DNA of 64,000 bases from Thermodesulfobacteriota bacterium (GTDB lineage Bacteria; Desulfobacterota; Anaeroferrophillalia; Anaeroferrophillales; Tharpellaceae), in NCBI GenBank assembly GCA_024763535.1, contig JANTFH010000005.1, positions 4,612 through 68,611 on the forward strand, in the 5' to 3' direction. A program made the position numbers and the translations under genes. The stretch's first letter is position 1. Each line of letters opens with the position of its first letter. Below, one piece after another: positions 8,685 through 24,156 of this stretch. The notes beneath the pieces were generated by a model that saw nothing but the letters and a program-made list of their open reading frames with translations, ran no database searches and was not told the origin of the DNA.

Positions 8685-9041
8685 ATGTCGCATGATTATA
8701 TTCCCGTTCTGGTAATGATGATTGTCGGTGTTGGTTTCGGTGTTGTGGCCGTGGTCTTATCTCGATTGCTTGGGCCGAACCGGAAATCAAGAGTCAAAAA
8801 AGAGACCTATGAATGTGGTATGACGACGATCGGTGCCTCCTATGTGCAGACGCCGATCAAATATTATGTTGTGGCTCTGTTATTTCTCGTATTTGATCTT
8901 GAATGTGTTTTTCTCTACCCCTGGGCTGTACATTATAAGAGTCTGGGGTTTTTTGGTTTCGTCGAGATGGTCCTCTTTATGGTGGTCCTCTTCGTCTGTT
9001 ATGTTTATGTCTGGAAAAAGGGAGCCTTGGAATGGGAATAG
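8685..9041 (+). CDS. nuoA: NADH-quinone oxidoreductase subunit A
   Basis: [31 protein letters not shown]. Confidence 0.97.
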
Positions 9042-9562
9042 AGAGTGCATTAAAGGGCGACGGATTCCTGGTCACCAACCTTGAGAGTTTAGTTAACTGG
9101 GGACGTAAGAATTCGATCTGGCCTTGTACCTTCGGTCTGGCCTGATGCGCTTTGGAGATGATGGCTACCAGTTTGGCTAGCTACGATATCGCCCGCTTCG
9201 GTTCCGAAGTTTTTCGGCCGTCGCCGCGTCAGTCCGATCTGATGATTGTTGCCGGTACCCTGACAAAAAAGATGTCGGTAATGGTGCAGAGAATTTATGA
9301 GCAGATGGCGGAGCCCCGCTGGGTTATCGCGATGGGTGCCTGTGCTTCCTGCGGCGGGGTTTTTCAGAGTTATTCCGTGGTTCAGGGGGTCGATCAGGTT
9401 ATTCCGGTTGATGTCTATGTTCCCGGTTGTCCGCCGCGGCCGGAAGCGCTGCTGGCCAGCGTGATGAAACTTCAGGACAAGATTATGAAAGATAAATTCA
9501 GTGATCGTCCTGATTATGAAGAGCCTTCAAGCAGCAAATCCGACATTGTCAGTTTGTGTTAG
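9032..9562 (+). CDS. nuoB: NADH-quinone oxidoreductase subunit B with in-frame TGA (putative Sec38) at 9143-9145
   Basis: Open from ATG 9032, overlapping the nuoA end: [45 protein letters not shown]...[13 protein letters not shown]...GACASCGG...[11 protein letters not shown]. 176 aa. Confidence 0.93.
9162..9183 (+). promoter_or_regulatory. SECIS-like hairpin after nuoB TGA
   Basis: TGGCTA-CCA-[GTT]-TGG-C-TAGCTA. The loop G is 26 nt after the UGA. Folded by eye. Confidence 0.6.
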
Positions 9563-9598
9563 CATAGTATATTTTCAAAATTATAGAGTGCAGAAGAT

Positions 9599-10096
9599 AT
9601 GGAAAATGCGAAAGTAGTAGAGCAGATTAAAGGTAAATTTGCTGATGCGATCATCGAGGATATCGAGTTTCGCGGCGATTTGACCATCGTGGTCAGTCTT
9701 GAGAAGCTGCATGAGATTATGCTCTATATCCATGATGATGAGTCTTTGCATTACGACCTGTTGTCGGATGTGATCGGGATTGACAGACTGCCCCGTGAGC
9801 CCCGCTTTGAGATTGTCTATGTTCTCCACTCAATGGATGACTTCAGGCGCCTGATGGTCAAGGTTATGGTTGATGTCGATATCGCTGTTCCGACCGTAAC
9901 CGACATCTGGAAATCGGCAGACTGGCCGGAGCGTGAGGTCTATGACCTTCTGGGCGTGAGTTTCAGTGATCACCCGGATCTACGCCGGATCCTGATGTGG
10001 GATGATTTTGATGGCCACCCTTTGCGCAAGGACTTTCCTCTGAAAGGTAAGGACTTCGATAAAAAATGGGACCCATCAACCATTAAGGTTATGTAA
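9599..10096 (+). CDS. nuoC: NADH-quinone oxidoreductase subunit C
   Basis: ADWPEREVYDLLGVSFSDHPDLRRILM...GHPLRKDFPL. Confidence 0.97.
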   Translation: MENAKVVEQIKGKFADAIIEDIEFRGDLTIVVSLEKLHEIMLYIHDDESLHYDLLSDVIGIDRLPREPRFEIVYVLHSMDDFRRLMVKVMVDVDIAVPTVTDIWKSADWPEREVYDLLGVSFSDHPDLRRILMWDDFDGHPLRKDFPLKGKDFDKKWDPSTIKVM

Positions 10097-10232
10097 GTTT
10101 AAGGTTTGTGAATTAGAATCTGGTGCCTGCGGATTCCCTTTGATTATGAAAACCGGGGAATATCTTGATGACGGCACTTACTTGCGGGCAACACCCGCGT
10201 TAGTGATAACTATATCATAGAGGTTGGTAGCG

Positions 10233-11405
10233 ATGGCAGAAGGTAAAATATTGACCATCAACATGGGTCCGCATCATCCGGCGACTCACGGGGTCTTGCG
10301 CCTGGTTCTGGAGCTTGATGGCGAGACGATCGTCAAGGTCACGCCCCATATCGGGCATTTGCACCGGGGGATAGAGAAGCTTGCGGAAAACATGAATTAC
10401 CAGCAGGTTATTCCGCTTACTGACCGTTTTGACTACACTGCGGCATCACTCAACAATCTTGGTTACTGTACTGCGGTAGAGAAACTTCTGGGAATTGAAG
10501 TTCCGAAACGGGCTCAGTATATTCGCGTCATCATGTCCGAGCTGGCTCGGATCATGGGTCATCATCTCTGGATCGGCAGCCATGCTCTCGACATCGGGGC
10601 GATGACCGTAGTTTTCTACGCCTTCCGTGATCGTGAAATGATCATGAATATGGTTGAAGAGGTTTCCGGTTATCGTTTAACCCCTTCTTATATGCGGGTC
10701 GGTGGCTTGGCCCGGGATATCACCCCGGAATTCATTCGCTGTCTGCGCGAATTTATCAAATGGTTCCCGACCGCCGTGGCCGGCTACAATACATTGCTGA
10801 CCGATAATATCATCTGGCGCAAAAGAACCCAGGATATTGGGGTTATTTCAGCTGAAGATGCCATTAACTATGGTTTGACCGGGCCTTCGTTGCGGGGCTC
10901 CGGAGTCGCTTATGATCTACGTAAGGTGAAACCTTACAGCAGTTATGATGACTTCGATTTTCAGGTTCCGGTTGGTGACAAGGGTGATGTTTACGACCGT
11001 TATCTGGTGCGCATGGAAGAGTTTATTCAGTCGCTTAATATTATTGAACAGGCGCTTGAAAACTTGCCGGAAGGGCCGGTAAACGTTGATAACCCGCTGA
11101 TCTTCAACCCTCAGATTGAGGATGTGCAGGAAGATATCAGTGCCCTGATCCGTCGTTTTAAGATTCAGTGCCAGGGGCCTGAGATTCCTGAAGGTGAAAT
11201 CTATCATGCGGTTGAAGGGTCCAAGGGTGAACTCGGATTCTATCTGGTTGGTGACGGTACTGAACATCCCTACCGGATGAAGGTTCGCTCCCCCTGTTTT
11301 ATCCTGGTCAGCGCCTTGGAAAAATTGATGCTTGGTCACATGATCGCCGACGCGATTGCGATTATCGGCAGCATCGATATCGTTTTGGGTGAGATTGACC
11401 GCTAG
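10233..11405 (+). CDS. nuoD: NADH-quinone oxidoreductase subunit D
   Basis: NMGPHHPATHGVLRL, HRGIEKL, DRFDY, C-terminal GSIDIVLGEIDR. No NiFe-binding CxxC motifs. Start may be 10224 (TTG) or 10233 (ATG). Confidence 0.97.
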   Translation: MAEGKILTINMGPHHPATHGVLRLVLELDGETIVKVTPHIGHLHRGIEKLAENMNYQQVIPLTDRFDYTAASLNNLGYCTAVEKLLGIEVPKRAQYIRVIMSELARIMGHHLWIGSHALDIGAMTVVFYAFRDREMIMNMVEEVSGYRLTPSYMRVGGLARDITPEFIRCLREFIKWFPTAVAGYNTLLTDNIIWRKRTQDIGVISAEDAINYGLTGPSLRGSGVAYDLRKVKPYSSYDDFDFQVPVGDKGDVYDRYLVRMEEFIQSLNIIEQALENLPEGPVNVDNPLIFNPQIEDVQEDISALIRRFKIQCQGPEIPEGEIYHAVEGSKGELGFYLVGDGTEHPYRMKVRSPCFILVSALEKLMLGHMIADAIAIIGSIDIVLGEIDR

Positions 11406-11493
11406 TTAGGGAAAGTGTAAATTTTTTAAGTTAGTTCGTAAGTTAGTTTGAGTTGCGGAGTCTGTTTTCGCATTAGTGAATGGGAGTCGGTTG

Positions 11494-13446
11494 ATGGCTG
11501 AGATTTTATTTAGTTCCTGGGGTGGCGAGGTAGTTGATAACCGCCAAAAAGATGGCCAGGACTTTGAGCCGGTTAATACAGTTGATTTACCGGAATATTT
11601 CAGACAGGATGAAGCGGTTAAGGCTCTTATGGGCTGGTACGGCATCGTTATTCGTGACCCGGAAACCGATATCGTCGATTTGAGTCGGGTCTATATCCAG
11701 GAAGTTCAGAATAAATCCTGTGGTAAATGTTTTCTCTGTCGGATCGGCACCCGGGTTATGGCTGAGACTCTGACACGAATCTGTAATGGACAGGGCAAAT
11801 CTGAAGATCTTGAAATCTTAAAACGCCTGGCTGATTCAATTCGTGAATCCTCGAAATGTAATATCGGCCAATCCGGGCCCTTGCCGATTCTCGACGCTTT
11901 AGAGCATTTCGCCGCTGATTTCGAAGCTGCAATCAGCGCACAAAAGAGTGTTGCTGCCGGTACCTACCACTCAAAACTGACCGCACCCTGTATGGATGCC
12001 TGCCCGATCCATTTAGATATTCCCAATTATGTAGAGTGTATAAAAGAGGGACGTTTTGCCGAATCGCTTGATATTATTCGGGAAAAACTGCCGTTGCCGG
12101 GAGTTGTCGGCCGCGTCTGTGTGCGCCCCTGCGAAGAGCACTGCCGGCGTATGAATCTTGATGCTCCGATTTCGATCAAATTTCTCAAGCGTTTTGTTGC
12201 CGATTATGAACTGAGCAAAGGCAAAGAGCCTGAATTTGCAATTGAACCTTCAGAAAAAACCGGGAAGGTTGCGATTGTCGGCGCCGGCCCCAGCGGTGCA
12301 ACCTGTGCTTTCCATCTTGCAAAGATGGGCCATGATGTTACCGTTTATGAGCGTTTCGATGAACCCGGCGGCATGTCGGCCATGGGGATTCCTGATTATC
12401 GCCTGCCGCGCCCTATTCTTAGAGAAGAGGTTGACCGCATTGAGCGTATGGGGGCGACCTTTAATTACGAAACCACGGTCGGTAAAGATATTAAACTCTC
12501 CCAGCTTGAAGCCGATAACGATGCCGTGTTTATCGCTATCGGGGCCCAGATGGGTACGACGATGGGGGTTGAAGGTGAAGAAGAGAACTATGCCGGTTAT
12601 ATCTCCGGGGTGCAGTACCTGTTGGATATCAACCAGGGTCGGGATCCTTATCCTGAAGGTAAAAAAGTAGCAGTCATCGGCGGCGGCAACGTGGCGATCG
12701 ACTGTGTGCGCTGCTCCTTCCGGGTGGGCAAGGACGATGTCAATCTTATCTATCGCCGGACCAAAAATGAAATGCCGGCTGATGATGTTGAAATCCATGA
12801 CGCGGAAGAGGAAAAAGTCAATTTTCACTATCTTACGCATCCGGTTAAAATTCTGGCGGAAAACGGTAAAGTTGTTGGTCTGCGCTGTGTTAAAATGGAG
12901 TTAGGCGAGCCCGACGAGAGTGGTCGCCGGCGGCCGCAGCCGATTGAAGGTTCGGAATTTGTTATAGAGTGCGACATTGTGGTCCCGGCGATTGGCCAGA
13001 CGATGGATTTGTCTCTGCTTGAAGGACGTGAAGACGTTAAAACCACCCGCTGGAAAACGATTGTCGTTGACGAAGTAACTAAACAGAGCGACCAGCCGAA
13101 AATCTTCTCCGGCGGTGACTGTGAAACCGGTCCCGGGGCTTTGATTACTGCTTGTGCCGGAGGGCGGACGGCCGCTTTTAATATCGATAAGCTGATCAAT
13201 GGTGAACCGCTGGATTATACCGAAGATGACTATTTTGATAAATTTTTCAGTAAGGTTAAGGTCTTTGACCCGGCTGAAGATATTGGATTCTTAGGCGGTC
13301 GCGAGCGGAAAGAGCTGGAGATGCTTGATCCCGACACCCGCAAATTCACCAACGCTGAAGTGGAACAGGGCTTTTCGATTAACGATGCCATGGCTGAGGC
13401 CGATCGCTGTCTGCGCTGTTATCGGGTGGCAACTGTAAGAGTATAA
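11494..13446 (+). CDS. SfrB-like NAD(P)H oxidoreductase: NuoF-type 4Fe-4S domain plus GltD/dihydropyrimidine-dehydrogenase-like FAD/Fe-S domain
   Basis: N-terminus MAEILFSSWGGEVVDNR (resembles Geobacter SfrB, from memory). SCGKCFLCRIG...SKCNIG, APCMDACPIH...GRVCVRPCEEHC, VGAGPSG, IGGGNVAIDC...YRRT, C-terminal EADRCLRCY. GGGAG RBS before ATG 11494. Confidence 0.85.
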   Translation: MAEILFSSWGGEVVDNRQKDGQDFEPVNTVDLPEYFRQDEAVKALMGWYGIVIRDPETDIVDLSRVYIQEVQNKSCGKCFLCRIGTRVMAETLTRICNGQGKSEDLEILKRLADSIRESSKCNIGQSGPLPILDALEHFAADFEAAISAQKSVAAGTYHSKLTAPCMDACPIHLDIPNYVECIKEGRFAESLDIIREKLPLPGVVGRVCVRPCEEHCRRMNLDAPISIKFLKRFVADYELSKGKEPEFAIEPSEKTGKVAIVGAGPSGATCAFHLAKMGHDVTVYERFDEPGGMSAMGIPDYRLPRPILREEVDRIERMGATFNYETTVGKDIKLSQLEADNDAVFIAIGAQMGTTMGVEGEEENYAGYISGVQYLLDINQGRDPYPEGKKVAVIGGGNVAIDCVRCSFRVGKDDVNLIYRRTKNEMPADDVEIHDAEEEKVNFHYLTHPVKILAENGKVVGLRCVKMELGEPDESGRRRPQPIEGSEFVIECDIVVPAIGQTMDLSLLEGREDVKTTRWKTIVVDEVTKQSDQPKIFSGGDCETGPGALITACAGGRTAAFNIDKLINGEPLDYTEDDYFDKFFSKVKVFDPAEDIGFLGGRERKELEMLDPDTRKFTNAEVEQGFSINDAMAEADRCLRCYRVATVRV

Positions 13447-13532
13447 TGCGGTCCTAAATCCGTGTTGAAGTATAGTTTTGCAAATAGAGTTTTGATTTTT
13501 TTAAGTAAAATTTTTACGCAGGGAAAATTAGC

Positions 13533-16208
13533 ATGGTCACGTTGACGATTGACGGCAAAGAAGTCACCGTCCCCCAGGGAACGACCATCCTTGAGGCGGC
13601 CCGGAGTGTCGATATCAGAATTCCGACACTCTGTTACCACGATCGTTTGAACCCTATCGGTTCATGTCGGATGTGTGTAGTTGAGATCGAAGGTTATACG
13701 CACCCGATGGCAGCCTGTACAACTCCGGTTGATGATGGGATTGAGGTTGTAACTAAATCTGATCGTCTGACTAGGATTCGTCAGGATTCGTTGAAACTGA
13801 TTCTGGTTAATCATCCGCTTGACTGTCCGGTTTGTGATAAGGGCGGCGAGTGCCTGTTGCAGGATTTGACCTACGAATTCGGGATTGATCAGGTTGAGTA
13901 TAAAGCGGCAAAAGTCGAGCGTGAATCACAGTATGCGACTCCGCTGATTCGTTACTGGCCCGACCGCTGTATCATGTGCCTGCGCTGCGTTACCGCCTGT
14001 CAGGAGATTAAGGGAATCGGCGCCATCAGTATTCAGGGAGACGGTTACGGAGCCCAGGTAGTGGCCGTAGATGCCGAGAAGTGTCAATCCTGCGGTGAGT
14101 GTCTGCAGGTCTGTCCGACCGGGGCCCTGACTGAGGATTTGAGCCGTTATAAAGGTCGCACCTGGCTGGTTGACAGAGTGCCGACCACCTGTACCTACTG
14201 CGGTTGCGGTTGTCAGCTTGAACTTAATGTTCAAAATGACCGGGTTATCGCCGTAACCACCCGGGAGGGGGTTGGCGTTAATCATGGCAGTCTCTGTGTC
14301 AAGGGCCGTTTCGGTTACGAATTTATCAACAGTGATGAACGGTTGACCAAACCGCTGATCAAGAAAAACGGCAAATTTGAAGAGGCGAGCTGGGATGAAG
14401 CTCTGGACCTGGTAGCCAGTAAGTTCTCTGCGATCAAAGAGGAACACGGCCCCGGTGCCCTGGCCGGCTTGACCTCGGCCCGTTGTACCAATGAAGAGAA
14501 CTACCTTTTCCAAAAATTTATGCGCGCGGCGGTCGGGACCAATAATGTCGATCACTGCGCCAGGCTCTGACACTCCTCAACTGTGGCCGGACTGGCCGCA
14601 ACGTTTGGCAGTGGAGCAATGACCAACCCGATTGCCGATGTCCTGAAATCAGAGACCGTATTGGTAACCGGAACTAATACCACGGAAAATCATCCGATTT
14701 TCGCCAATTACCTGAAAGAGGCCGTGCTTAAACACGGCACCAAGATTCTGGTGATCGATCCGCGGCGCATCGATCTGGTCGATTACGCCGAGCTCTACCT
14801 CCAGCCGAAACCGGGTACCGATATTGCCTGGATTAACGGTTTGATGCATATTATCATCAAGGAGGGCTGGGCGGCCCAGGATTATATCGACGAACGTTGT
14901 GAAGGTTTCGATGAATTTAAAAGCAATCTCGAAAAATTCACACCTGAATATGTTTCTGGAATTACCGGTCTGACCGAAGATGAGCTCTATGCCGCGGCCA
15001 AACTCTATGGCCAGGCGGCTCCGGCCTCAATCCTTTACGCCATGGGTATCACCCAGCATACCAGCGGTACCGATAATGTTAAATCATTAGGTAACCTGGC
15101 GATGCTTTGTGGTAACATGGGAGTTGCCGGCGGCGGCGTCAATCCGCTGCGGGGCCAGAACAATGTGCAGGGTGCCTGCGATATGGGTGGTCTGCCGAAT
15201 GTCTACACCGGTTATCAGAAGGTCGATGTTGATGAAGTGCGGGAGAAATTCGCCAAGGCCTGGGGGCTTGCGGCGGAGGCTATGGATTCAGCACCCGGTC
15301 TGAAACTGACCGAAATGTTTCCGGCAGCGGCCGAGGGTAAAGTCAAGGCTCTCTATATTATGGGTGAGAACCCGCTGGTCAGTGATCCCGATTTAACTCA
15401 TATTGAACACTGTATCGAAGCCCTTGATTTCTTCGTTGTGCAGGATATCTTTCTAACCGAAACGGCTAAGAAAGCCGATGTCGTGCTGCCCGGAGTCTCC
15501 TTTGCTGAAAAAGATGGAACCTTCGTCAATTCCGAGCGGGTTGTACAGCGGGTTCGTAAAGCATTAACGATTCCCGGCGAAGCTCGTGAAGACAGTGCTA
15601 TTATTGCCGATATCTCAACCCGTATGGGATATGAGATGAAATATGAAAGTGCCGCCGATATCATGAAAGAGATCAACGCTGTGACCCCGAGTTACGGCGG
15701 CATCACTTATGAACGTTTGGAAAACGGCGGCCTGGCCTGGCCCTGCCCCGACAGTGAACATCCCGGGACACCAATTCTGCATGTTGATAAATTTGCCCGC
15801 GGTAAAGGTCTCTTTTTCGCGATAGATCATCAGCCGCCGGCTGAACTCTGCGATAATGAGTATCCGTTTGTACTGTCGACCGGCCGTGTTCTCTCTCATT
15901 TCCATACCGGAACCATGACCCGCAAGGGTTCCGGCCTGAATAAGGTTCATCCTGAAGTCAAGGCTGAGATCAACCCTGAAGATGCCGCGCGTCTGGGGAT
16001 TGAAGCGGATGATCGTCTTAAGATTACCTCCCGCCGGGGTTCGATCGAGGTTAAAGCCATGCTCAGTGACCGTCCGGCAGCCGGGGTGGTATTTGTACCC
16101 TTTCACTTTCATGAAGTTGCAGTTAACCGTCTGACCAACGCGGCTCTCGATCCGGTTGCCAAAATTCCGGAATATAAGGTCTGCGCGATTAAGGTTGAAA
16201 AGGCTTAG
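13533..16208 (+). CDS. fdhF: Selenocysteine-containing formate dehydrogenase alpha subunit with NuoG-like Fe-S N-terminus; Sec346 at TGA 14568-14570
   Basis: ORFs 13533-14570 and 14583-16208 join in frame as [29 protein letters not shown]. Also PLRGQNNVQGACDMG, IPTLC..GSCRMC, HPLDCPVCDKGGEC, two further Cys clusters, CTYCGCGC..CVKG and IPEYKVCAI. 891 aa. Confidence 0.96.
14582..14600 (+). promoter_or_regulatory. SECIS hairpin of the FDH alpha gene
   Basis: TGTGGCC-[GGACT]-GGCCGCA, stem starting 11 nt after the UGA, with a G-starting loop. Confidence 0.75.
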
Positions 16209-16265
16209 CCGGCAAAACGAGTCTAAATTATCGAAGTACTTTTACAGTTTGAAGAGGTATAACGG

Positions 16266-17252: not shown

Positions 17253-17306
17253 GATTAACCCAAACTGAGATAGTATTAGATTTAAGAATATAAATTTGAG
17301 GATAAT

Positions 17307-17783
17307 ATGGCTGACAAGGATTACATACTCAATATCAGTGACCGGCGCCCGACGGGTAAATATATCACGCCGATTCTGAAAGGCCTGGGTTACACGCTGA
17401 AGAATTTCTTCAGTAAGCCGATTACGATAAAATATCCGACCGAGCGCCGTGAAGTCAGCGACCGCTGGCGGGGCCTGCATCGTTTGAAAGTGGATGATCG
17501 GGGGGCTTTGAAATGTGTCGCCTGCGGCCTTTGCGCAAAGATCTGTCCGCCTAAGGCGATCACCATTGTGCCCTACGAAGAGGCCGGCGAAACCCGTTAT
17601 CCGAAAGAGTTTGTGATTGACGAGCTGCGTTGTATCTTCTGCGGCTTCTGTCAGGAAGCCTGTCCTAAAGATGCGATTGAGCTGACGAAAGTTTACGATT
17701 TTGTGGATTATAAACGCGAAGACTTTATCTTCGATATCGAAAAACTGAAAACCCCGGAAAAATATATCTTCAACGGCAAATAG
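17307..17783 (+). CDS. nuoI: NADH-quinone oxidoreductase subunit I
   Basis: TIKYP..RWRGLH, CVACGLCAKICP and CIFCGFCQEACP. Confidence 0.96.
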   Translation: MADKDYILNISDRRPTGKYITPILKGLGYTLKNFFSKPITIKYPTERREVSDRWRGLHRLKVDDRGALKCVACGLCAKICPPKAITIVPYEEAGETRYPKEFVIDELRCIFCGFCQEACPKDAIELTKVYDFVDYKREDFIFDIEKLKTPEKYIFNGK

Positions 17784-17796
17784 TGGGAGTAGATTG

Positions 17797-18306
17797 ATGG
17801 AACTGGTATTTTTGTTGATATGCGGTGGAGTTGCGGTAATCGCCTCGCTGCTGGTTATCTTTGCTCGCTCCACCCTGCACAGTGCCCTGTGGATGGTTCT
17901 CTCCTTTTTTATGGTAGCGATAATCTACGTTCTGCTGCACGCTCAGTTTCTGGCTATGCTTCAGGTTATTGTCTACGCCGGAGCGATTATGATGTTTATT
18001 GTCTACGCCATCATGATGCTGAATCTGCGTCAGGAAGCCAAATCCAAGGTCGCAACCCGAATCTCCAAGGTAGTTGGAGTCGGGGCTCTGATTGTGCTTT
18101 TTCTCGAACTTACTCTGATCGGCGTAAGTCACAATATGGCCACAATACAGGGTCCGGTAACGGATAAGCTTGTGGCCACCTACGGCCGGGTAGCGGTAAT
18201 CTCAAATTTTCTTTTTTCCGACTATCTGCTGCCGTTCGAGGTCGCATCCATTCTCCTGACTGCGGGTGTTGTCGGGGCCGTAGTTCTGGCTAAACGTGAA
18301 AAATAG
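17797..18306 (+). CDS. nuoJ: NADH-quinone oxidoreductase subunit J
   Basis: AQFLAMLQVIVYAGAIMMFIVY and YLLPFEVASILL. Confidence 0.96.
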   Translation: MELVFLLICGGVAVIASLLVIFARSTLHSALWMVLSFFMVAIIYVLLHAQFLAMLQVIVYAGAIMMFIVYAIMMLNLRQEAKSKVATRISKVVGVGALIVLFLELTLIGVSHNMATIQGPVTDKLVATYGRVAVISNFLFSDYLLPFEVASILLTAGVVGAVVLAKREK

Positions 18307-18317
18307 AGGGAAAGGTA

Positions 18318-18623
18318 ATGGTTGATAATCAAAGTATATATCTGACGTTTGCGGTTATTCTGTTTGTCATCGGCGCGGCCGGTGCCATCTGCCGCCGTAA
18401 TGCGATTGTTGTCTTTATGTGTATTGAAATTATGCTGGCCGGAGTCAGTATTGCATTTGTAACCTTCAGTCGTGCCAATCACTCTCTGGACGGTATCTTT
18501 ATGGTTCTGTTTGTTATGGCGGTTGCTGCCGCAGAAGCAGCGGTCGGTCTGGCGATTTTTCTTTTGATGTATCGCAAACAGGGCTCGATCGATCTGGATA
18601 AGTTTAATCTGTTGAAGTGGTAG
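18318..18623 (+). CDS. nuoK: NADH-quinone oxidoreductase subunit K
   Basis: RRNAIVVFMCIEIML and VAAAEAAVGLAI. Confidence 0.97.
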   Translation: MVDNQSIYLTFAVILFVIGAAGAICRRNAIVVFMCIEIMLAGVSIAFVTFSRANHSLDGIFMVLFVMAVAAAEAAVGLAIFLLMYRKQGSIDLDKFNLLKW

Positions 18624-18724
18624 ATCTGTTTAGCTGAAGCTCGATCTTATTGTGTAAATTTAGAATCTCGTAAACTGAGTGTTTTGAGATAACGTTTTAA
18701 GATATTTTTTAAGGAGATAGAGGT

Positions 18725-20815
18725 ATGTTCGATTATATCTGGTTGGTACCGGTCTTCCCGGCCATCGGAGTTTTGATCAACGGTCTGCTTGGACGTCGTC
18801 TAGAGGCGATTAACAAGAGTTTGATCCATTGGATCGCCTGCGGTGCGATCGCCCTCTCCTATATCGTTACCTGTACTATTTTCTACCAGCTCCTGCAGCT
18901 CCCTGAAGCTGAACGATTTTATCAGGTGACCTGTTTTTCCTGGATCAACAGCGGGGTCTTACAGACTTATATTGCTTATCAGATTGATCCCCTGTCAATG
19001 ATGATGGCGATGTTTGTTATCGGGGTCGGCTTTCTCATCCATGTCTATTCGATTGGCTATATGGATGGCGATCCGGGTCGTTACTACCGCTTCTTTGTTT
19101 ATTTGAATCTTTTTATGTTCTCGATGATCAATCTGATTCTCGCCAACAACTATCTTTTGATGTTCTTAGGCTGGGAAGGGGTTGGGTTGTGTTCCTATCT
19201 TTTGATCGGCTTCTGGTTTGATGACGAGGCCAATGCAATTGCCGGCAAAAAAGCTTTTATTACCAACCGGGTGGGTGATTTCGCTTTTTTGATCGGGATG
19301 TTTCTGCTCTTTACCGGACTGGGTGAACATGGTGTCTGGAGCCTGCAGTTTAACGAAGTGTTCAGTAACGTTCACTACCTTTCAACCAGTCAGGCAACCG
19401 CCATCTGTCTCCTCTTTTTTATCGGTTGTACGGCCAAGTCAGCTCAGATTCCACTCTATGTCTGGCTGCCCGATGCCATGGCCGGCCCGACTCCGGTCTC
19501 TGCCCTGATCCATGCCGCTACTATGGTGACCTCGGGTGTCTATATGATCACCCGCTCCAATATCCTATATTCTATGTCACCTCTGGCGATGGGGGTTGTG
19601 GCGACGGTTGGAGCTTTGACGGCGCTGTTTGCCGCGTCGATCGGCCTGGTGCAGAATGATATCAAAAAAGTTCTGGCCTATTCAACTGTGAGTCAGCTCG
19701 GTTATATGTTCCTAGGGCTCGGTGTCGGTGCCTTCGCCGCCGGTATGTTTCATGTTTTAACCCATGCATTCTTTAAGGCTCTTATGTTTTTGGGATCTGG
19801 TGCGGTTATTCACTCTATGCATCATGCTTATCATAAAGTGCATTCCCATGATGATGCTCAGGATATGCGAAATATGGGCGGATTGAAGAGTAAGACCCCC
19901 ATAACTTATTGGACCTTTCTGGTTGGCGCATTGGCAATTGCCGGGGTTCCGGGACTTTCCGGCTTCTTCAGTAAGGATGAAATTCTCTGGCAGGCATACA
20001 GCAGTCCACAGGGCCACTGGTTGCTCTGGCTTATAGGTGCAATGGCTGCGGGAATGACTGCATTTTATATCTTCCGATTAATTTTTATGACATTCTTTAA
20101 CGATTGCCGGGCAGGAGACGCGGCTGAGCATATCCATGAATCGCCTCTGACCATGACGATACCGCTGATGGTTCTGGCCGTGCTGGCAGCTTTTGGTGGT
20201 TATCTAGGCGTTCCGCATGCTTTGGGTGGCAGCAATCTTTTTGAGCACTTCCTGGAGCCGGTAATGGGAATGGGTGATGGGAAACTGTTGCAGGATGCCA
20301 CGACTGCGGTTGCCCACGGTGCCCATCATGCCGTGCATGCAGCTGCCGGTCACATTACTGAGGCCGCACACGCTGTTGCCGGGCATGCCGAGGGTGGTGC
20401 CCATCATGTTGGACATGAACCGCTCTGGGTTGAGTATTTATTGATGGCCGTTTCCGTTGCTTTAGCTTTCGGTGGCATCTTTGTCGCCTATATGTTTTAC
20501 ATTGTTAAACGTGAACTGCCGGTGGCTCTGGCGGAGAAATTTTCCTTTATTCACCGTCTGTTGCTGAATAAATGGTATATTGACGAACTCTACGATGTGG
20601 TTATTATTTCACCCCTGCGTGGTTTCAGTTATTTTCTCTGGAAAGGGATTGATGTCGGAGTGGTTGATTACATCGTCAACGGAGTTGCCCGGATAGTTGG
20701 CTGGGGAAGCAGTGCCGTGCGCTACATACAGTCCGGTTATGTGCAGAGTTACGCGGTTTCAGTCGTATTCGGTACGGTGGTGCTGCTGGCCTACTACTTC
20801 TTGAAGGCACTCTAG
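18725..20815 (+). CDS. nuoL: NADH-quinone oxidoreductase subunit L
   Basis: GWEGVGLCSYLLIGFW, KSAQIPLYVWLPDAMAGPTPVSALIHAATMV, IKKVLAYSTVSQLGYM. His-rich insert near the C-terminus. Confidence 0.97.
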   Translation: MFDYIWLVPVFPAIGVLINGLLGRRLEAINKSLIHWIACGAIALSYIVTCTIFYQLLQLPEAERFYQVTCFSWINSGVLQTYIAYQIDPLSMMMAMFVIGVGFLIHVYSIGYMDGDPGRYYRFFVYLNLFMFSMINLILANNYLLMFLGWEGVGLCSYLLIGFWFDDEANAIAGKKAFITNRVGDFAFLIGMFLLFTGLGEHGVWSLQFNEVFSNVHYLSTSQATAICLLFFIGCTAKSAQIPLYVWLPDAMAGPTPVSALIHAATMVTSGVYMITRSNILYSMSPLAMGVVATVGALTALFAASIGLVQNDIKKVLAYSTVSQLGYMFLGLGVGAFAAGMFHVLTHAFFKALMFLGSGAVIHSMHHAYHKVHSHDDAQDMRNMGGLKSKTPITYWTFLVGALAIAGVPGLSGFFSKDEILWQAYSSPQGHWLLWLIGAMAAGMTAFYIFRLIFMTFFNDCRAGDAAEHIHESPLTMTIPLMVLAVLAAFGGYLGVPHALGGSNLFEHFLEPVMGMGDGKLLQDATTAVAHGAHHAVHAAAGHITEAAHAVAGHAEGGAHHVGHEPLWVEYLLMAVSVALAFGGIFVAYMFYIVKRELPVALAEKFSFIHRLLLNKWYIDELYDVVIISPLRGFSYFLWKGIDVGVVDYIVNGVARIVGWGSSAVRYIQSGYVQSYAVSVVFGTVVLLAYYFLKAL

Positions 20816-20895
20816 AAACAGCTCTAAATTTAACGAAATTTTTTAATACAATTTATATCCCAAAGTTTAAATAGATTCCGCAGGGAGAGAGATAG

Positions 20896-22479
20896 ATGAA
20901 TGAACTAGGTTTTCCGATAATCAGCCTTGTGACCTTTTTTCCGATCTTCGGGGCGTTGATCCTGATGTTTATCGATAAAGAGGCCAAAGATACGCTCCGG
21001 GGCACTGCCATGGTTTTTGCCATGATTGAGTTCTTTATCTCTCTGCCGATCATCTTCGCATTTCAAAGCGGTACTGCAGATATGCAGTTCGTGGAGCGCT
21101 ACACCTGGATTAAGAGTGCCGGTTTAAGTTATTATATCGGTCTGGACGGTATCAGTCTCTGGATCTTTATGCTGACCACCTTCTTAACTCCGATCTGTGT
21201 TTTGTGTTCCTGGAACTATATTCAGAAACGGGTCAAAGAGTTCATGATCTGCCTCCTGTTACTGGAGACGGCCATGCTGGGGGCTCTGGTCTCCCTGGAC
21301 CTGATCCTTTTCTATATCTTCTGGGAACTGATGCTGATTCCGATGTATTTCCTGATCGGAGTCTGGGGTGGAGACAATCGGATCTATGCCGCAGTTAAGT
21401 TTTTTATCTATACCGCCGCCGGTTCGGTCTTCATGCTGCTCTCGATATTCTTTCTCTACTATTACAACCATAAGGTCACCGGCGTCTATACCTTTGATCT
21501 GCTGGAACTTTACAAACTTAATATTCCGGTATCGACCCAGTTCTGGCTCTGTCTGACCTTTTTTGTCTCGTTCGCCATTAAGGTACCGATGTTTCCGCTC
21601 CACACCTGGCTGCCGGATGCTCATGTCCAGGCTCCGACGGCCGGTAGTGTAATTTTGGCAGGTGTTCTCTTGAAAATGGGAACTTACGGTTTCATGCGCT
21701 TTGCGATTCCGCTCTTTCCCTACGCCAGTCATCAGTTTACACCGGTTATTGCGACATTAGCGGTAATCGGCATCATCTACGGGGCTCTGGTAGCCCTGAT
21801 CCAGCCTGATATGAAGAAACTGGTTGCCTATTCCAGTGTCAGTCACTTGGGTTATGTCATGCTCGGTATCTTTGCTTTCAATATGCAGGGGGTTGAGGGT
21901 GGTCTCTATCAGATGCTCAACCATGGTATCAGTACCGGCGCTCTCTTCCTGATCGTCGGTATGCTTTATGAGCGTCGTCATACCCGGATGATCAAGGATT
22001 TCGGTGGTATCGCCAAGGTGATGCCGGTCTATGCCACCTTTTTCATGATTATGACCCTGTCATCAATTGCGGTTCCCGGAACCAACGGTTTCGTCGGCGA
22101 GTTTATGATCCTGGTCGGAGCTTTCCGCTCAATTCCGATGCATGCTGTTTTTGCCACTTCCGGGGCCATCCTCGGGGCGCTTTATATGCTCTGGATGTAT
22201 CAGCGGGTGATGTTTCAGCCCCTCGATAAAGAGGAAAACAAGGTCTTGAAAGATCTCAATGCCCGGGAAATTGTGACTCTGCTGCCGCTGGCGATACTGG
22301 TTTTCGTTATGGGTTTCTTTCCTGGTTATTTCATCAATAAGATGGACGCTTCATGTCAGCACTTCCTGAAAAACTATAATCAGCAGGTGGCCATGTATGA
22401 ACAGCAGGTTGAAGATGGCAGTGCCGCCAAACTGGCCGCGGTGATGAGTGACAATAATTTAGAGAAGAAGATCGACTGA
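20896..22479 (+). CDS. nuoM: NADH-quinone oxidoreductase subunit M
   Basis: FWELMLIPMYFLIG, KVPMFPLHTWLPDAHVQAPTAGSVILAGVLLKMG. Confidence 0.97.
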   Translation: MNELGFPIISLVTFFPIFGALILMFIDKEAKDTLRGTAMVFAMIEFFISLPIIFAFQSGTADMQFVERYTWIKSAGLSYYIGLDGISLWIFMLTTFLTPICVLCSWNYIQKRVKEFMICLLLLETAMLGALVSLDLILFYIFWELMLIPMYFLIGVWGGDNRIYAAVKFFIYTAAGSVFMLLSIFFLYYYNHKVTGVYTFDLLELYKLNIPVSTQFWLCLTFFVSFAIKVPMFPLHTWLPDAHVQAPTAGSVILAGVLLKMGTYGFMRFAIPLFPYASHQFTPVIATLAVIGIIYGALVALIQPDMKKLVAYSSVSHLGYVMLGIFAFNMQGVEGGLYQMLNHGISTGALFLIVGMLYERRHTRMIKDFGGIAKVMPVYATFFMIMTLSSIAVPGTNGFVGEFMILVGAFRSIPMHAVFATSGAILGALYMLWMYQRVMFQPLDKEENKVLKDLNAREIVTLLPLAILVFVMGFFPGYFINKMDASCQHFLKNYNQQVAMYEQQVEDGSAAKLAAVMSDNNLEKKID

Positions 22480-22622
22480 TTTAATCTTTATTTAAGGTGG
22501 AACCCGGCCCGAACTGTTTATATTAAGTTTCCGGAAATCCGGGATACATGCCGGCTGGCTTATCCCAGACTGTGCAATATACAAATTATTATATTTTTTA
22601 AGATAAATTTTGGAGGAGAGTG

Positions 22623-24092
22623 ATGGAAATGCTGGATTTTGTTGTCCCGGCACTCAATCTTAAGGCAATTCTGCCGCAGTTGATCCTGGCCTTGACGGCA
22701 TTGACCGTACTATTGGTCGATGTCTTTGCCAAAGGCAAGGGTAAAACCTCCCTGGGAGCCTTGTCACTGGCGGGGGTGGTTGCCGCTTTAATTACTCTCA
22801 TGCTGTCTCGCGGCAGTCATGAATCGGCCTATGCCGGTATGCTGATGGCGGATGGCTTCGGTTTTTTCATCACCCTGATTGTCTGTATCGTTACCTTTTT
22901 GACGATTCTTGCTTCGATCAATTATGAACGTATCTGTCCTGATATCAAGGCCGGTGAGTTTTATTGCCTGATGCTGTTTGCCGCTTTCGGGATGTCCTTT
23001 ATGGGGAATGCCGGCAACCTGATTATGATCTTCGTGGCTCTGGAAACCATGTCTATCTCGATCTATGTTCTGGCCGGCTTCAAGACCTCTGATGCGAAAT
23101 CGATCGAGTCGGCATTGAAATATTTTCTCCTGGGAGCCTTTGCCTCGGGATTTCTGCTCTTCGGATTTGCCCTGGTTTACGGTGCCGCCGGAACCCTGGA
23201 TATCGTCAAACTCGGTGCCTTCTTCACTGCTAACCCCGACTCACTGCATCATCCTATGGTTTTAGGCGGTATGGCATTGATGACGGTGGGCTTCGGCTTT
23301 AAGGTTGCCATGTTCCCGTTTCACATGTGGACTCCGGATGTCTATGAAGGGGCTCCGACCGTGGTTACCGGATTTATGGCCACCGGGGTCAAGGCCGCAG
23401 CCTTTGCCGCGTTGGTAAGGGTATTTTTCGTTGGTTTTGCGCCGCTGCAGGCCGACTGGACGACGATCATGTGGGTAGCGGCGTTGCTGACGATGACCAT
23501 CGGCAACCTGGTTGCGATCTCACAGACCAATATCAAACGGATGCTGGCCTATTCCAGTATCGCTCATGCCGGTTACCTTCTGGTCGGCTTTGTGGTCGGT
23601 ACCGAACTGGCCCGTTCCGGTATGCTCTTTTATCTTTTAGCCTACGCCTTTGCCAATATCGGAGCTTTTGCGGTAATCTCCGCCATGGGTAAAGATGGAG
23701 AAGAGTATACCGAGCTTAATGATTTCTCCGGGGCCGGTTTTAAATATCCCTTCCTGGGTCTGATGATGAGCATCTTTATCTTCTCCATGGCCGGGATTCC
23801 TCCGGCGGCGGGTTTTATGGGTAAATTCTTCATCTTCTCGGAAGCGATTAAATCCGGATATATCTGGCTGGCGATCTTCGGAGTCATCAACAGCGTAATC
23901 TCGCTTTACTACTATCTTGGGGTTATCGTGCGCATGTACTTCAAGGAGCCCGAGCGCGAAATCACAATCATGGCTCCGGCCGGAACCATGATTGCCGCTC
24001 TCTCGATTGCCGCTTTCGCGGTTCTGCAGATGGGAATCTTTCCCTCCTATATCTGGGATCTGGCAAGAGAGTCGGTGAAGATGATTATGTAG
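22623..24092 (+). CDS. nuoN: NADH-quinone oxidoreductase subunit N
   Basis: ESALKYFLLGAFAS, FKVAMFPFHMWTPDVYEGAP, NIKRMLAYSSIAHAGY. Confidence 0.97.
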   Translation: MEMLDFVVPALNLKAILPQLILALTALTVLLVDVFAKGKGKTSLGALSLAGVVAALITLMLSRGSHESAYAGMLMADGFGFFITLIVCIVTFLTILASINYERICPDIKAGEFYCLMLFAAFGMSFMGNAGNLIMIFVALETMSISIYVLAGFKTSDAKSIESALKYFLLGAFASGFLLFGFALVYGAAGTLDIVKLGAFFTANPDSLHHPMVLGGMALMTVGFGFKVAMFPFHMWTPDVYEGAPTVVTGFMATGVKAAAFAALVRVFFVGFAPLQADWTTIMWVAALLTMTIGNLVAISQTNIKRMLAYSSIAHAGYLLVGFVVGTELARSGMLFYLLAYAFANIGAFAVISAMGKDGEEYTELNDFSGAGFKYPFLGLMMSIFIFSMAGIPPAAGFMGKFFIFSEAIKSGYIWLAIFGVINSVISLYYYLGVIVRMYFKEPEREITIMAPAGTMIAALSIAAFAVLQMGIFPSYIWDLARESVKMIM

Positions 24093-24121: not shown

Positions 24122-24156
24122 AAAAAAGGGTATGGAATTTTCCATACCCTTTTTTT
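24122..24156. terminator. Bidirectional terminator between convergent nuoN and livF
   Basis: AAAAAAGGGTATGGA / TCCATACCCTTTTTT inverted repeat. Confidence 0.9.

What the first reader, a model, noticed from the sequence alone, without database searches (positions are those of the whole stretch)
8685..24092. Complex I with NuoEFG replaced by an SfrB/GltD-like flavoprotein and a Sec-formate dehydrogenase
Seen: one co-directional run, with one upstream promoter and one terminal terminator, of nuoABCD, two foreign genes where nuoEFG normally lie, and nuoHIJKLMN. The first gene keeps a NuoF-type 4Fe-4S motif (SCGKCFLCRIG..C) fused to a GltD-like FAD domain. The second has the NuoG Fe-S N-terminus plus an intact FDH active site (U-H, and Arg in LRGQNNVQG). 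There is no nuoE. NuoD keeps HPATHG/DRFDY and lacks NiFe CxxC motifs. Established: canonical NuoG is a cofactor-less FDH homolog, and formate hydrogenlyases use a NiFe subunit in the NuoD position. Inference: an ion-pumping formate- and/or NADPH:quinone oxidoreductase with two inputs, possibly running in reverse for CO2 or NADP+ reduction. It resembles a proposed FDH-like ancestor of the N-module. I cannot confirm from here that it is undescribed.
Basis: partly seen in the sequence, partly recalled or inferred. Interest (0 to 1): 0.92.

Follow-up and report, generated by a model that had tools for sequence, protein, structure and literature searches.

The report
Complex I with built-in formate dehydrogenase
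A complete respiratory complex I operon carries the two genes of an NADP-type, selenium-containing formate dehydrogenase where the NADH-oxidising genes normally lie, so the enzyme is predicted to pass electrons from formate and NADPH, rather than NADH, to the membrane quinone pool while pumping protons.

Summary
Window 8685-24092 (+) reads nuoABCD, fdhB-like, fdhA-like, nuoHIJKLMN, with no nuoEFG.

- **The two inserted genes** are the beta and alpha subunits of an NADP-dependent formate dehydrogenase (Moorella FdhAB / Geobacter SfrAB type). The alpha subunit passes NCBIfam's Fdh-alpha cut-off. It keeps Sec-His-Arg at the columns where E. coli FdhF has them.
- **The design is not rare.** In a sample of 401 genomes of the phylum, at least 57 (own genome included) place the beta gene directly after nuoD. 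In most of these the alpha gene has lost its catalytic residues and resembles NuoG. Some have no alpha gene, and three append the pair after nuoN.
- **What is not shown:** binding to the membrane arm and formate/NADPH:menaquinone activity are inferred.
- **Prior art for the idea:** Kuenenia NUO-2 was tentatively annotated as a "formate:quinone oxidoreductase". Sulfurimonas complex I has an NfnB-like NuoF replacement. My ten searches found no paper on this FdhBA form.
- **Earlier notes of this scan** record the same design on other DNA.
- **NuoB** also carries an in-frame TGA at a ligand position of cluster N2.

Verdict: a new variant of a known kind, of considerable interest.

The parts
8534..8562 (+). 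Promoter-like site, TTGACA-17 nt-TATATA, about 120 nt before nuoA
   Evidence: Read by eye. Not listed by the consensus scan, which found no excess of such sites. Weak evidence.
8685..9041 (+). nuoA
   Evidence: Pfam Oxidored_q4, E 3.4e-37.
9032..9562 (+). nuoB. In-frame TGA at 9143-9145 (codon 38), at the first Cys of the tandem-Cys motif of cluster N2 (the motif's role is recalled).
   Evidence: Translation GLA-U-CALEM. NCBIfam NuoB subfamily 247.7 bits against a cut-off of 116. At this codon, 14 of 21 related loci have TGA and 7 of 21 have TGC or TGT. A hairpin downstream shows 2 pairs with changes on both sides.
9599..10096 (+). nuoC
   Evidence: Pfam Complex1_30kDa, E 1.2e-43.
10224..11405 (+). 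nuoD, quinone type. The likely start is the ATG at 10233.
   Evidence: NCBIfam TIGR01962, 558 bits against a cut-off of 459. HPATHG and DRFDY are present and there are no NiFe Cys pairs.
11494..13446 (+). fdhB-like flavoprotein: a NuoF C-terminal 4Fe-4S domain fused to a GltD/NfnB-type module (2x[4Fe-4S], FAD, NADPH). The ORF is open from the GTG at 11476.
   Evidence: Pfam. PDB sequence hits. JGI names homologues 'formate dehydrogenase (NADP+) beta subunit'. Model pLDDT 92.5. The fold is nearest the NfnABC and StnABC NADPH subunits. Cofactor motifs are conserved.
13533..16208 (+). fdhA-like subunit: a NuoG-type Fe-S N-terminus plus a Mo/W-bisPGD domain. TGA (Sec346) at 14568-14570.
   Evidence: TIGR01591 Fdh-alpha, 872.8 bits against a cut-off of 666. 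NuoG TIGR01973, 446 bits, below its cut-off of 470. Best PDB hit is FdsA-type, E 1.2e-228 over the full length. U-H-R aligns with E. coli FdhF. TGA at this codon in 31 of 41 loci.
14571..14613 (+). SECIS-like hairpin directly after the fdhA TGA
   Evidence: Minimum free energy -19.3 kcal/mol, z -1.63; 11 of 200 shuffles fold as well. Suggestive only.
16266..17252 (+). nuoH
   Evidence: Pfam NADHdh, E 5.5e-121.
17307..17783 (+). nuoI (2x[4Fe-4S])
   Evidence: NCBIfam TIGR01971, 144 bits against a cut-off of 113. Eight Cys are invariant in 53 sequences.
17794..18306 (+). nuoJ
   Evidence: Pfam Oxidored_q3.
18318..18623 (+). nuoK
   Evidence: Pfam Oxidored_q2.
18725..20815 (+). nuoL
   Evidence: Pfam Proton_antipo_M, Proton_antipo_N and Proton_antipo_C.
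20896..22479 (+). nuoM
   Evidence: Pfam Proton_antipo_M and Oxidored_q5_N.
22620..24092 (+). nuoN
   Evidence: Pfam Proton_antipo_M.
24122..24156 (.). Two-way terminator-like hairpin: A-run, stem GGGTATGGAA/TTCCATACCC, T-run. It lies between nuoN and a convergent ABC-transporter gene.
   Evidence: Read by eye. Not listed by the scan. The next gene is on the - strand.

Best explanation
The operon encodes the eleven membrane-arm and quinone-module subunits of complex I plus an FdhB/FdhA pair of the NADP-dependent formate dehydrogenase type in the nuoEFG slot, and this pair likely docks on the quinone module as the electron-input head.

**Predicted wiring (inferred from homology).**
- Formate is oxidised at the Sec-containing Mo/W-bisPGD site of FdhA.
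- NADPH is oxidised at the FAD of FdhB.
- Both paths would join in the NuoG-type Fe-S chain of the FdhA N-terminus: one 2Fe-2S cluster, a His-ligated 4Fe-4S cluster and two further 4Fe-4S clusters.
- From there electrons would pass through the two clusters of NuoI and cluster N2 of NuoB (probably Sec-ligated) to menaquinone at NuoD/NuoH. This would drive proton pumping by NuoL, M and N.

**Direction.** The module alone should interconvert formate and NADPH, so the whole enzyme would be a three-terminal junction (CO2/formate, NADP+/NADPH, MK/MKH2) and should be reversible. This genome has Wood-Ljungdahl genes and no other cytoplasmic FDH was found. I therefore expect the forward direction during acetyl-CoA oxidation, which would yield formate and, in many organisms, NADPH.

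**Shown:** gene identities, cofactor motifs, and conserved gene order.
**Inferred:** docking, activity, pumping and direction.
For: **Gene content of the operon.**
1. All 11 core nuo genes are intact and co-directional with the pair. The largest gap is 140 nt.
2. FdhA is a true FDH by sequence. Fdh-alpha equivalog scores 872.8 bits against a cut-off of 666. The best PDB hit is FdsA-type at E 1.2e-228. U346-H347-R540 fall in the columns where E. coli FdhF has U-H-R and E. coli NuoG has E-Q-A.
3. FdhB residues 31-160 match the C-terminal N3-cluster domain of NuoF, HydB and HoxF. Residues 160-648 match the NADPH subunits of NfnABC and StnABC.
4. FdhB keeps GGGNVA...YRR. GxGxxA and Tyr-Arg-Arg are described as NADP(H) markers in PMC7483475 and bioRxiv 10.1101/717884.

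**Conservation in other genomes.**
5. Of the 80 best full-length FdhB matches from 80 of the 401 sampled phylum genomes, 56 lie directly after nuoD (47 B-A-nuoH, 6 B-nuoH, 3 cut by a contig end). Three lie directly after nuoN. These 56 span 16 family codes and 35 genera.
6. Of the 80 loci from the species-genome collection, 28 are nuo-linked by the automatic call. L081 is also nuo-linked but has a broken B gene.
7. Among the 50 alpha genes in the slot in the phylum sample, 33 have lost the catalytic triad, 14 keep it and 3 are partial. All 53 aligned slot alpha subunits keep every Cys/His ligand of the N-terminal Fe-S chain and of the FS0/N7 cluster. A dead FDH kept only as an Fe-S wire makes sense as a NuoG-like subunit of a larger complex.

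**The window's own genome (94.65% complete).**
8. No full-length NuoG was found. The four NuoE/NuoF-like genes sit with short (193-241 aa) HoxU-like proteins. One triad lies next to a 2-oxoacid oxidoreductase and one next to HdrA/MvhD-type genes.
9. The selenocysteine machinery is present: selA, selB, selD and tRNA-Sec.
10. Also present are Fhs and AcsB, FdhD and MqnA/D-type menaquinone genes.
11. The only other FDH-like gene found has a twin-arginine signal, so it is periplasmic.
Against: - Nothing shows physical association. The complex-prediction tool could not be run, and no RNA or protein data were available.
- Free FdhB-FdhA pairs at 65-70% identity exist in other genomes. The family's studied members are soluble enzymes: the Moorella NADPH-dependent Fdh (PMC13040438) and SfrAB (PMC7483475).
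- On the FastTree trees, embedded and free forms interleave. At least 10 changes of state are needed on the FdhB tree. The window's clade is sister to free clades. The link to nuo is therefore gained or lost easily.
- In three relatives the pair follows nuoN rather than filling the slot.
- No FocA-type formate channel was found.
- In 3 of 8 same-genus genomes (89-94% complete) no full-length FdhB match was listed.
Confidence: 0.55

Rival explanations
1. The pair is an ordinary soluble NADP-dependent formate dehydrogenase that is only co-transcribed with the nuo genes. The eleven-subunit Nuo would work 'headless', likely on ferredoxin, as proposed for other NuoEFG-less complexes.
For: - Close free pairs exist, and the family's studied members are soluble.
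- Headless 11-subunit complexes are common and are thought to use ferredoxin (PMC13040438; PMC3144371).
- Three relatives simply append the pair after nuoN.
- Embedded and free forms interleave on the trees.
Against: - The gene sits exactly between nuoD and nuoH in 56 of the 80 loci fetched, across 16 family codes.
- 33 of 50 slot alpha subunits have lost the FDH triad yet keep all Fe-S ligands. A soluble FDH that cannot oxidise formate would have no evident use.
- Six loci keep FdhB alone in the slot.
Confidence: 0.2
2. The same assembled complex works mainly in reverse. The proton-motive force would drive electrons from menaquinol uphill to NADP+ and/or CO2, making NADPH for biosynthesis or formate as a syntrophic electron carrier.
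For: - Complex I is reversible (PMC3144371 introduction).
- Reverse operation was proposed for the NfnB-containing complex I of Sulfurimonas and for anammox bacteria.
- Relatives (Ca. Tharpella) are described as fatty-acid and benzoyl-CoA degraders whose electrons enter the quinone pool (PMC9213671).
- The Moorella-type enzyme is described as an NADPH-dependent Fdh of a CO2-fixing acetogen.
Against: - Sequence cannot give direction.
- The genome encodes outer-membrane electron conduits and multihaem cytochromes in this same window. These suggest a respiratory sink for quinol.
- No formate channel for export was found.
Confidence: 0.2
3. One of the four NuoE/NuoF/short-NuoG-like modules encoded elsewhere in the genome is the true head of this membrane arm, and the FdhBA pair serves another purpose.
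For: Four PF01512 genes with NuoE-like and Fer2_4-type partners exist. A second, headless nuo cluster also needs a donor.
Against: - Their G-like partners are only 193-241 aa and lack the NuoG C-terminal domain.
- One triad lies next to a 2-oxoacid:ferredoxin oxidoreductase and one next to HdrA/MvhD-type genes, as in soluble complexes.
- None is next to membrane-arm genes.
Confidence: 0.05

Closest known systems
NADP-dependent formate dehydrogenase FdhAB of Moorella thermoacetica, and SfrAB of Geobacter sulfurreducens
   Same: Same two-subunit make-up. The alpha subunit has a NuoG-like Fe-S N-terminus plus a Sec Mo/W-bisPGD domain. The beta subunit is a GltD-like FAD/NADPH flavoprotein. JGI names homologues 'formate dehydrogenase (NADP+) beta subunit'. 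The Moorella NADPH-Fdh genes are called sfrB2, sfrA2 and fdhF3 (PMC13040438).
   Different: Those enzymes are soluble and stand alone. Here the genes sit in the nuoEFG slot of a complex I operon. I did not align the Moorella or Geobacter sequences themselves, so the link rests on annotation names and on domain architecture.
Canonical 14-subunit complex I (NuoA-N), N-module NuoEFG
   Same: The eleven other subunits are present. The FdhA N-terminus carries the NuoG cluster ligands. The FdhB N-terminus is the N3-cluster domain of NuoF.
   Different: There is no NuoE. The FMN/NADH domain of NuoF is absent. FAD/NADPH chemistry takes its place. The G-position subunit is a catalytically intact FDH: it scores below the NuoG cut-off and above the Fdh-alpha cut-off.
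Non-canonical complex I of Sulfurimonas denitrificans (bioRxiv 10.1101/717884; passages read)
   Same: An NfnB/GltD homologue (Suden_1824) takes the place of NuoF in a complex I operon. An NADP(H) link and reverse electron transport are proposed there.
   Different: That operon is described with two NuoG copies and non-canonical NuoE/F, and without an active FDH. I could not fetch its sequences, so homology to this FdhB is untested.
NUO-2 of 'Ca. Kuenenia stuttgartiensis' and Nitrospina gracilis (PMC3578206; passages read)
   Same: [quoted passage not shown] No biochemical data are reported.
   Different: That head is described as NuoE plus a NuoF2 that lacks the FMN site and has extra Fe-S clusters, plus NuoG2. 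It has no GltD-type flavoprotein.
NAD-dependent FdsABG formate dehydrogenase (PDB 6tg9 and 9wxb; organism recalled as Rhodobacter capsulatus)
   Same: Best solved relative of FdhA over its full length, E about 1e-228. It has the same NuoG-like N-terminus wired to the Mo site.
   Different: FdsB and FdsG are NuoF- and NuoE-like (FMN, NADH) and the enzyme is soluble. Its active site has Cys where this FdhA has Sec.
ForCE, the menaquinone-linked FDH of Bacillus subtilis (PMC8808070; passages read)
   Same: An FdsA-like cytoplasmic FDH that delivers electrons to menaquinone.
   Different: It uses a small cofactor-less partner (ForE). It has no complex I membrane arm and no pumping module.
Formate hydrogenlyase (Hyc/Hyf), and Fpo with FpoF
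   Same: Complex I relatives with a different electron-input or output module.
   Different: FHL has a NiFe large subunit in the NuoD position and makes H2. Here NuoD lacks the NiFe cysteines. FpoF is an F420 dehydrogenase.

Membership tests
Respiratory complex I (Nuo/NDH-1 type) | Eleven conserved core subunits: NuoA, B, C, D, H, I, J, K, L, M, N | tested here: met
   Every gene hits its Pfam family above the cut-off. The NCBIfam models for NuoB, NuoC, NuoD and NuoI score above their cut-offs.
Respiratory complex I (Nuo/NDH-1 type) | NuoD of the quinone type, without the NiFe-binding cysteine pairs | tested here: met
   HPATHG and DRFDY are present. There is no CxxC at either terminus.
Canonical 14-subunit NADH:quinone oxidoreductase | N-module made of NuoE, NuoF (FMN/NADH domain, PF01512) and NuoG | tested here: not met
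   The operon has no PF01257 or PF01512 domain. The four PF01512 genes lie on other contigs in soluble-type contexts. The G-position protein scores 446 bits, below the NuoG cut-off of 470.
Metal-dependent formate dehydrogenase alpha subunit (TIGR01591) | Score above the curated equivalog cut-off | tested here: met
   872.8 bits against a cut-off of 666.25.
Metal-dependent formate dehydrogenase alpha subunit (TIGR01591) | Sec/Cys-His pair and active-site Arg at the positions found in E. coli FdhF | tested here: met
   U346, H347 and R540 fall in the same columns as U-H-R of E. coli FdhF, taken from NC_000913.3.
Metal-dependent formate dehydrogenase alpha subunit (TIGR01591) | Selenocysteine insertion is possible in this organism | tested here: met
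   selA, selB and selD score above their cut-offs and tRNA-SeC is present. The hairpin after the TGA is suggestive only.
NADP-dependent FDH (FdhAB/SfrAB type) | Beta subunit with a GltD-type 2x[4Fe-4S], FAD and NADPH site, plus an N-terminal NuoF-type 4Fe-4S domain | tested here: met
   Pfam. PDB hits. Fold search. Motifs are conserved in embedded and free forms.
NADP-dependent FDH (FdhAB/SfrAB type) | NADPH rather than NADH specificity | tested here: inconclusive
   The GxGxxA and Y-R-R motifs are present, and two papers name them as NADP(H) markers. They were not mapped residue by residue onto a solved NADPH complex, and no assay exists.
NADP-dependent FDH (FdhAB/SfrAB type) | Soluble, stand-alone heterodimer | not testable with these tools
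   The gene context (nuoEFG slot) argues against stand-alone use. Only biochemistry can tell.
Bfu-type bifurcating enzymes (StnABC, NfnABC) | NuoE-like and FMN-containing NuoF-like subunits alongside the GltD/NuoG-like subunit | tested here: not met
   The operon has no NuoE-like protein and no FMN-domain protein. Only the NADPH-binding part matches StnC and NfnA.
Formate hydrogenlyase / group 4 NiFe hydrogenase complexes | NiFe large subunit with CxxC pairs in the NuoD position | tested here: not met
   The NuoD sequence lacks them.

The most novel reading that the evidence does not exclude
An active selenocysteine formate dehydrogenase serves as the NuoG subunit of a proton-pumping complex I, and an NADPH flavoprotein serves as its NuoF. 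This would make a three-terminal respiratory machine joining formate/CO2, NADPH/NADP+ and menaquinone, with a selenium ligand on its last Fe-S cluster. Relatives in the same phylum show every stage in the same slot: working FDH, dead NuoG-like relic, and no G subunit at all. That would be a living series for how complex I acquired and then hollowed out its N-module.
Probability: 0.4. Interest if true: 0.85.

Novelty: new variant of a known kind. Interest (0 to 1): 0.68.

Why it matters
- **Donor for 'headless' complexes.** Many anaerobes encode 'headless' complex I enzymes whose electron donor is unknown or assumed to be ferredoxin. This operon names a concrete candidate donor module, formate and NADPH. 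The design occurs in at least 57 of 401 sampled genomes of a phylum important in sediments, syntrophy and sulfur cycling.
- If the pair is bound, formate oxidation or CO2 reduction would be coupled directly to the proton-motive force in the cytoplasm. That would change energy budgets for the oxidative and reductive Wood-Ljungdahl pathway and for syntrophic formate transfer.
- **Origin of NuoG.** That NuoG descends from a formate dehydrogenase becomes directly testable. Active, degenerate and absent forms sit in the same slot among relatives.
- **Selenium at N2.** The probable selenocysteine at cluster N2 of NuoB would, as far as I recall, be the first selenium ligand in a complex I electron chain. 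One literature search on this found no report.

Tried and rejected
- **Complex prediction.** I prepared a job with NuoI (alignment A1) and the first 270 residues of FdhA (alignment A2). Nothing was folded, so there is no result either way.
- **Sequencing runs.** No RNA holder is listed. The only full holder is a DNA run that may be the source sample. I did not lay any reads.
- **Promoter and terminator scans.** They gave no more sites than shuffles did, so they say nothing on internal transcription starts or stops.
  - I found no paper describing an FdhB/FdhA pair in the nuoEFG slot.
  - The two surveys of nuo operons (PMC3144371 and PMC4758237; passages only) do not mention it in what I read.
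  - Pereira et al. 2011 is not held.
  - Supplements were not read: those of PMC9213671 (Tharpella) and PMC10553843, while those of the bioRxiv preprint are closed. They may hold relevant gene tables.
  - Subscription journals are not covered.
- **Readings rejected.**
  - Formate hydrogenlyase: NuoD has no NiFe cysteines.
  - Stn/NfnABC-type bifurcating enzyme: the operon has no NuoE-like or FMN subunit.
  - Canonical NuoG: it scores below the cut-off and has an intact FDH triad.
- **Trees.** The direction of evolution (insertion into nuo or release from it) cannot be read from the FastTree trees. The root rests on two long outgroup rows or on E. coli NuoG alone.

Full report
**What is in the window.**

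Between 8685 and 24092, thirteen genes lie on the + strand. Pfam assigns them in order to nuoA, nuoB, nuoC, nuoD, two foreign genes, then nuoH, I, J, K, L, M and N. Gaps run from a 10-nt overlap (nuoA/nuoB) to 140 nt (nuoM/nuoN).

Upstream lies about 580 nt of AT-rich spacer with a TTGACA-17-TATATA match at 8534-8562. Beyond it is a divergent multihaem cytochrome gene. Downstream lies an A-run/hairpin/T-run at 24122-24156, followed by a convergent ABC-transporter gene. The consensus scans found no more promoter-like or terminator-like sites than in shuffles. The single-transcript reading therefore rests on gene order and spacing only.

**The two foreign genes.**

*The first gene (11494-13446, 650 aa from the ATG).*
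- Residues 31-160 match the C-terminal N3-cluster domain of NuoF-type proteins: NfnB 9bov_B at E 7.5e-27, HydB, HoxF, and Thermus Nqo1 at E 1.5e-8.
- Residues 160-648 match the NADPH-binding subunits of NfnABC and StnABC (9bov_A E 7e-117, 9n5u_A, 8oh5_C) and of NfnI/NfnB.
- An AlphaFold model built on 65 sequences is confident (pLDDT 92.5, pTM 0.91). Its nearest solved folds are the same proteins.
- It has no FMN/NADH domain (PF01512).
- JGI names many homologues 'formate dehydrogenase (NADP+) beta subunit'.
- The Cys motifs, the FAD GxGxxG and the NADPH-type GGGNVA...YRR are conserved in embedded and free family members.

*The second gene (13533-16208).*
- It reads through one TGA at codon 346.
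- It scores 872.8 bits on NCBIfam Fdh-alpha (cut-off 666) and 446 bits on NuoG (cut-off 470).
- Its best solved relative is the FdsA-type alpha subunit over its full length, E 1.2e-228.
- In an alignment with E. coli proteins taken from NC_000913.3, U346-H347-R540 fall where FdhF has U-H-R and where NuoG has E-Q-A.

*Selenocysteine.* The genome has selA, selB, selD and tRNA-Sec. A hairpin follows the TGA (-19.3 kcal/mol, z -1.6).

The pair is thus an FdhB/FdhA of the NADP-dependent type. A 2026 Moorella paper calls the genes of its NADPH-dependent Fdh sfrB2, sfrA2 and fdhF3 (PMC13040438; passages).

**The rest of the genome (2.6 Mb, 126 contigs, 94.65% complete).**

- There is no canonical N-module. 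The four PF01512 genes lie elsewhere. Three sit in NuoE-like/NuoF-like/short Fer2_4 triads and one with a Fer2_4 protein only. The G-like partners are 193-241 aa. One triad is next to a 2-oxoacid:ferredoxin oxidoreductase and one next to HdrA/MvhD-type genes.
- A second nuo cluster on contig C1 is headless. It reads nuoABCDHIJK plus four antiporter-like genes and is preceded by nfnA/nfnB-like genes.
- The genome has formyl-THF synthetase and acetyl-CoA synthase, FdhD and MqnA/D-type menaquinone genes. No FocA was found.
- With the window's FdhA as query, the only other FDH-like gene has a twin-arginine signal and Cys-His, so it is periplasmic. The operon's FdhA is therefore the only cytoplasmic FDH found.

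**How widespread it is.**

*Species-genome collection.* The scan gave 100 relatives of FdhB and kept the best 80. An automatic map finds 28 of the 80 nuo-linked: 17 nuoD-B-A-nuoH, 5 nuoD-B-A cut by a contig end, 5 nuoD-B cut by a contig end, and 1 B-A-nuoH. A further 39 are free and 13 are undetermined for lack of flanking DNA. L081 is also nuo-flanked, but its B gene is in two pieces. The closest relatives are named Ca. Tharpella and Thermodesulfobacteriota MAGs. The paper that named Tharpella speaks only of 'NADH dehydrogenase (complex I)' (PMC9213671; passages).

*Phylum sample.* In an even sample of 401 genomes of the phylum, I fetched the 80 best full-length matches, one per genome. I left out four partial matches and all weaker ones.

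| Context of the FdhB-like gene | Loci of 80 |
|---|---|
| nuoD-B-A-nuoH | 47 |
| nuoD-B-nuoH (no A gene) | 6 |
| nuoD-B-A, cut by a contig end | 3 |
| directly after nuoN | 3 |
| free | 18 |
| undetermined | 3 |

The 56 loci directly after nuoD span 16 family codes and 35 genera. For two of the three after-nuoN cases I fetched the whole operon. It is nuoABCDHIJKLMN-fdhB-fdhA with nothing in the slot. At least 57 of 401 genomes, own genome included, thus carry the slot arrangement, and this is a lower bound. Of 8 same-genus genomes, 4 show it in full and one on split contigs. In 3 (89-94% complete) no full-length match was listed.

**The series of states.**

- Among the 50 slot alpha genes of the phylum sample, 14 keep C/U-H-R, 33 have lost it and 3 are partial. 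The window's active selenocysteine form is therefore the minority.
- All 53 slot alpha subunits I aligned keep the ligands of the 2Fe-2S cluster (C34, C45, C48, C62), the His-ligated cluster (H94, C98, C101, C107) and FS0/N7 (C220, C223, C227, C255). The ligands of the two further 4Fe-4S clusters are also kept, with C156 in at least 90% of sequences.
- NuoI keeps its eight Cys in all 53 sequences.
- On FastTree trees, the window's FdhB and FdhA clades are each sister to free clades, and embedded and free forms interleave. At least 10 changes of state are needed on the FdhB tree. Degenerate alpha subunits arise on several branches.
- These are quick trees with long outgroup rows. I draw no direction of evolution from them.

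**Mechanism.**

By homology, the module alone should link formate/CO2 and NADP+/NADPH through FAD, the GltD clusters, the N3-type cluster and the NuoG-type chain to the Mo/W site. This is the wiring expected for this family and seen in FdsABG (structure knowledge recalled).

In canonical complex I the His-ligated cluster of NuoG hands electrons to NuoI (recalled). If FdhA sits where NuoG sits, formate and NADPH would both feed menaquinone through NuoI and NuoB, with proton pumping. From textbook potentials (about -420 mV for CO2/formate, -320 mV for NADP, -75 mV for menaquinone; recalled), both reactions release at least as much energy as NADH:menaquinone.

Docking, activity, pumping and direction are all inferred. 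The strongest indirect argument for docking is that most relatives keep a catalytically dead alpha subunit, with all its clusters, in the slot. That only makes sense for a wire-and-scaffold subunit like NuoG.

**Comparison with what is known.**

- Complex I relatives with other heads are known: FpoF, and the flavodoxin-dependent Campylobacter enzyme (PMC3144371).
- A preprint notes an NfnB homologue in the NuoF place of Sulfurimonas complex I. It proposes reverse electron transport to NAD(P)H and ferredoxin, and cites an anammox proposal for NADH plus formate (10.1101/717884).
- Free fdhF2-nfnB pairs in Seep-SRB1g were read as a possible bifurcating enzyme (PMC10553843).
- ForCE of B. subtilis links an FdsA-like FDH to menaquinone without complex I (PMC8808070).
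- None of the passages I read describes the FdhB/FdhA pair in a nuo operon, and ten searches found no such paper.
- Earlier notes of this scan report the same design in other genomes. I re-derived the counts independently here.

**Also in the operon.**

nuoB has TGA at codon 38, in the GLA-C-C motif. Fourteen of 21 related loci have TGA there and 7 have TGC or TGT. A downstream hairpin shows two pairs with changes on both sides. This fits selenocysteine at a ligand position of cluster N2 (the motif's role is recalled).

**Verdict.**

This is a new variant of a known kind, widespread, untested, and well suited to experiments.

Noticed in passing
window 9143-9145 (nuoB codon 38): In-frame TGA at the first Cys of the tandem-Cys motif of NuoB (GLA-U-CALEM). 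TGA occurs in 14 of 21 related loci and Cys codons in 7. A downstream hairpin has 2 pairs with changes on both sides. This is a probable selenocysteine at a ligand position of cluster N2.
   Followed up: partly
G000 contig C1:35500-50000 (locus L088 2511-16959): A second, headless nuo cluster: nuoABCDHIJK plus four antiporter-like genes. It lies about 400 nt downstream of nfnA-like (309 aa) and nfnB-like (467 aa) genes.
   Followed up: partly
G000 contigs C1:124700-127800, C48, C69, C77 (loci L089-L092): Four NuoF-like genes with short HoxU-like partners; three also have a NuoE-like gene. One set lies next to a 2-oxoacid:ferredoxin oxidoreductase and one next to an HdrA-like (927 aa) and MvhD gene. 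In one set a 698-aa protein with no Pfam hit follows.
   Followed up: partly
G000 contig C36:3-2650 (-) (locus L093): A periplasmic (twin-arginine signal) Cys-type FDH-like catalytic subunit, cut by the contig end. It is on the same contig as formyl-THF synthetase (8290-10026) and acetyl-CoA synthase (15368-15829).
   Followed up: partly
G000 contig C15:46111-47046 (-): The selD match contains one in-frame TGA, so selenophosphate synthetase is itself a likely selenoprotein.
   Followed up: no
loci L129, L135, L141, L149, L150, L161: Relatives with nuoD-fdhB-nuoH and no alpha or NuoG-like gene in the slot. I did not check whether an alpha subunit is encoded elsewhere.
   Followed up: no
loci L154/L177, L157, L166/L178: Relatives of one family code with an 11-gene nuoA-N operon followed directly by fdhB and an active Sec fdhA.
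   Followed up: yes
loci L030 and L103 (same sequence); L156; L167: Slot alpha subunits in transitional states: Cys-Leu-Arg, Cys-His-Arg and Cys-His-Ala in place of Sec-His-Arg.
   Followed up: no
window 5887-8100 (-): A 737-aa multihaem cytochrome (NapC/NirT-like N-terminus, c7/c3 and MtrC-like domains), divergent from the nuo operon.
   Followed up: no
locus L081: A nuo-embedded copy in which fdhB, the alpha gene, nuoI and nuoM each appear in two or more pieces. This is either a decaying operon or assembly errors.
   Followed up: no
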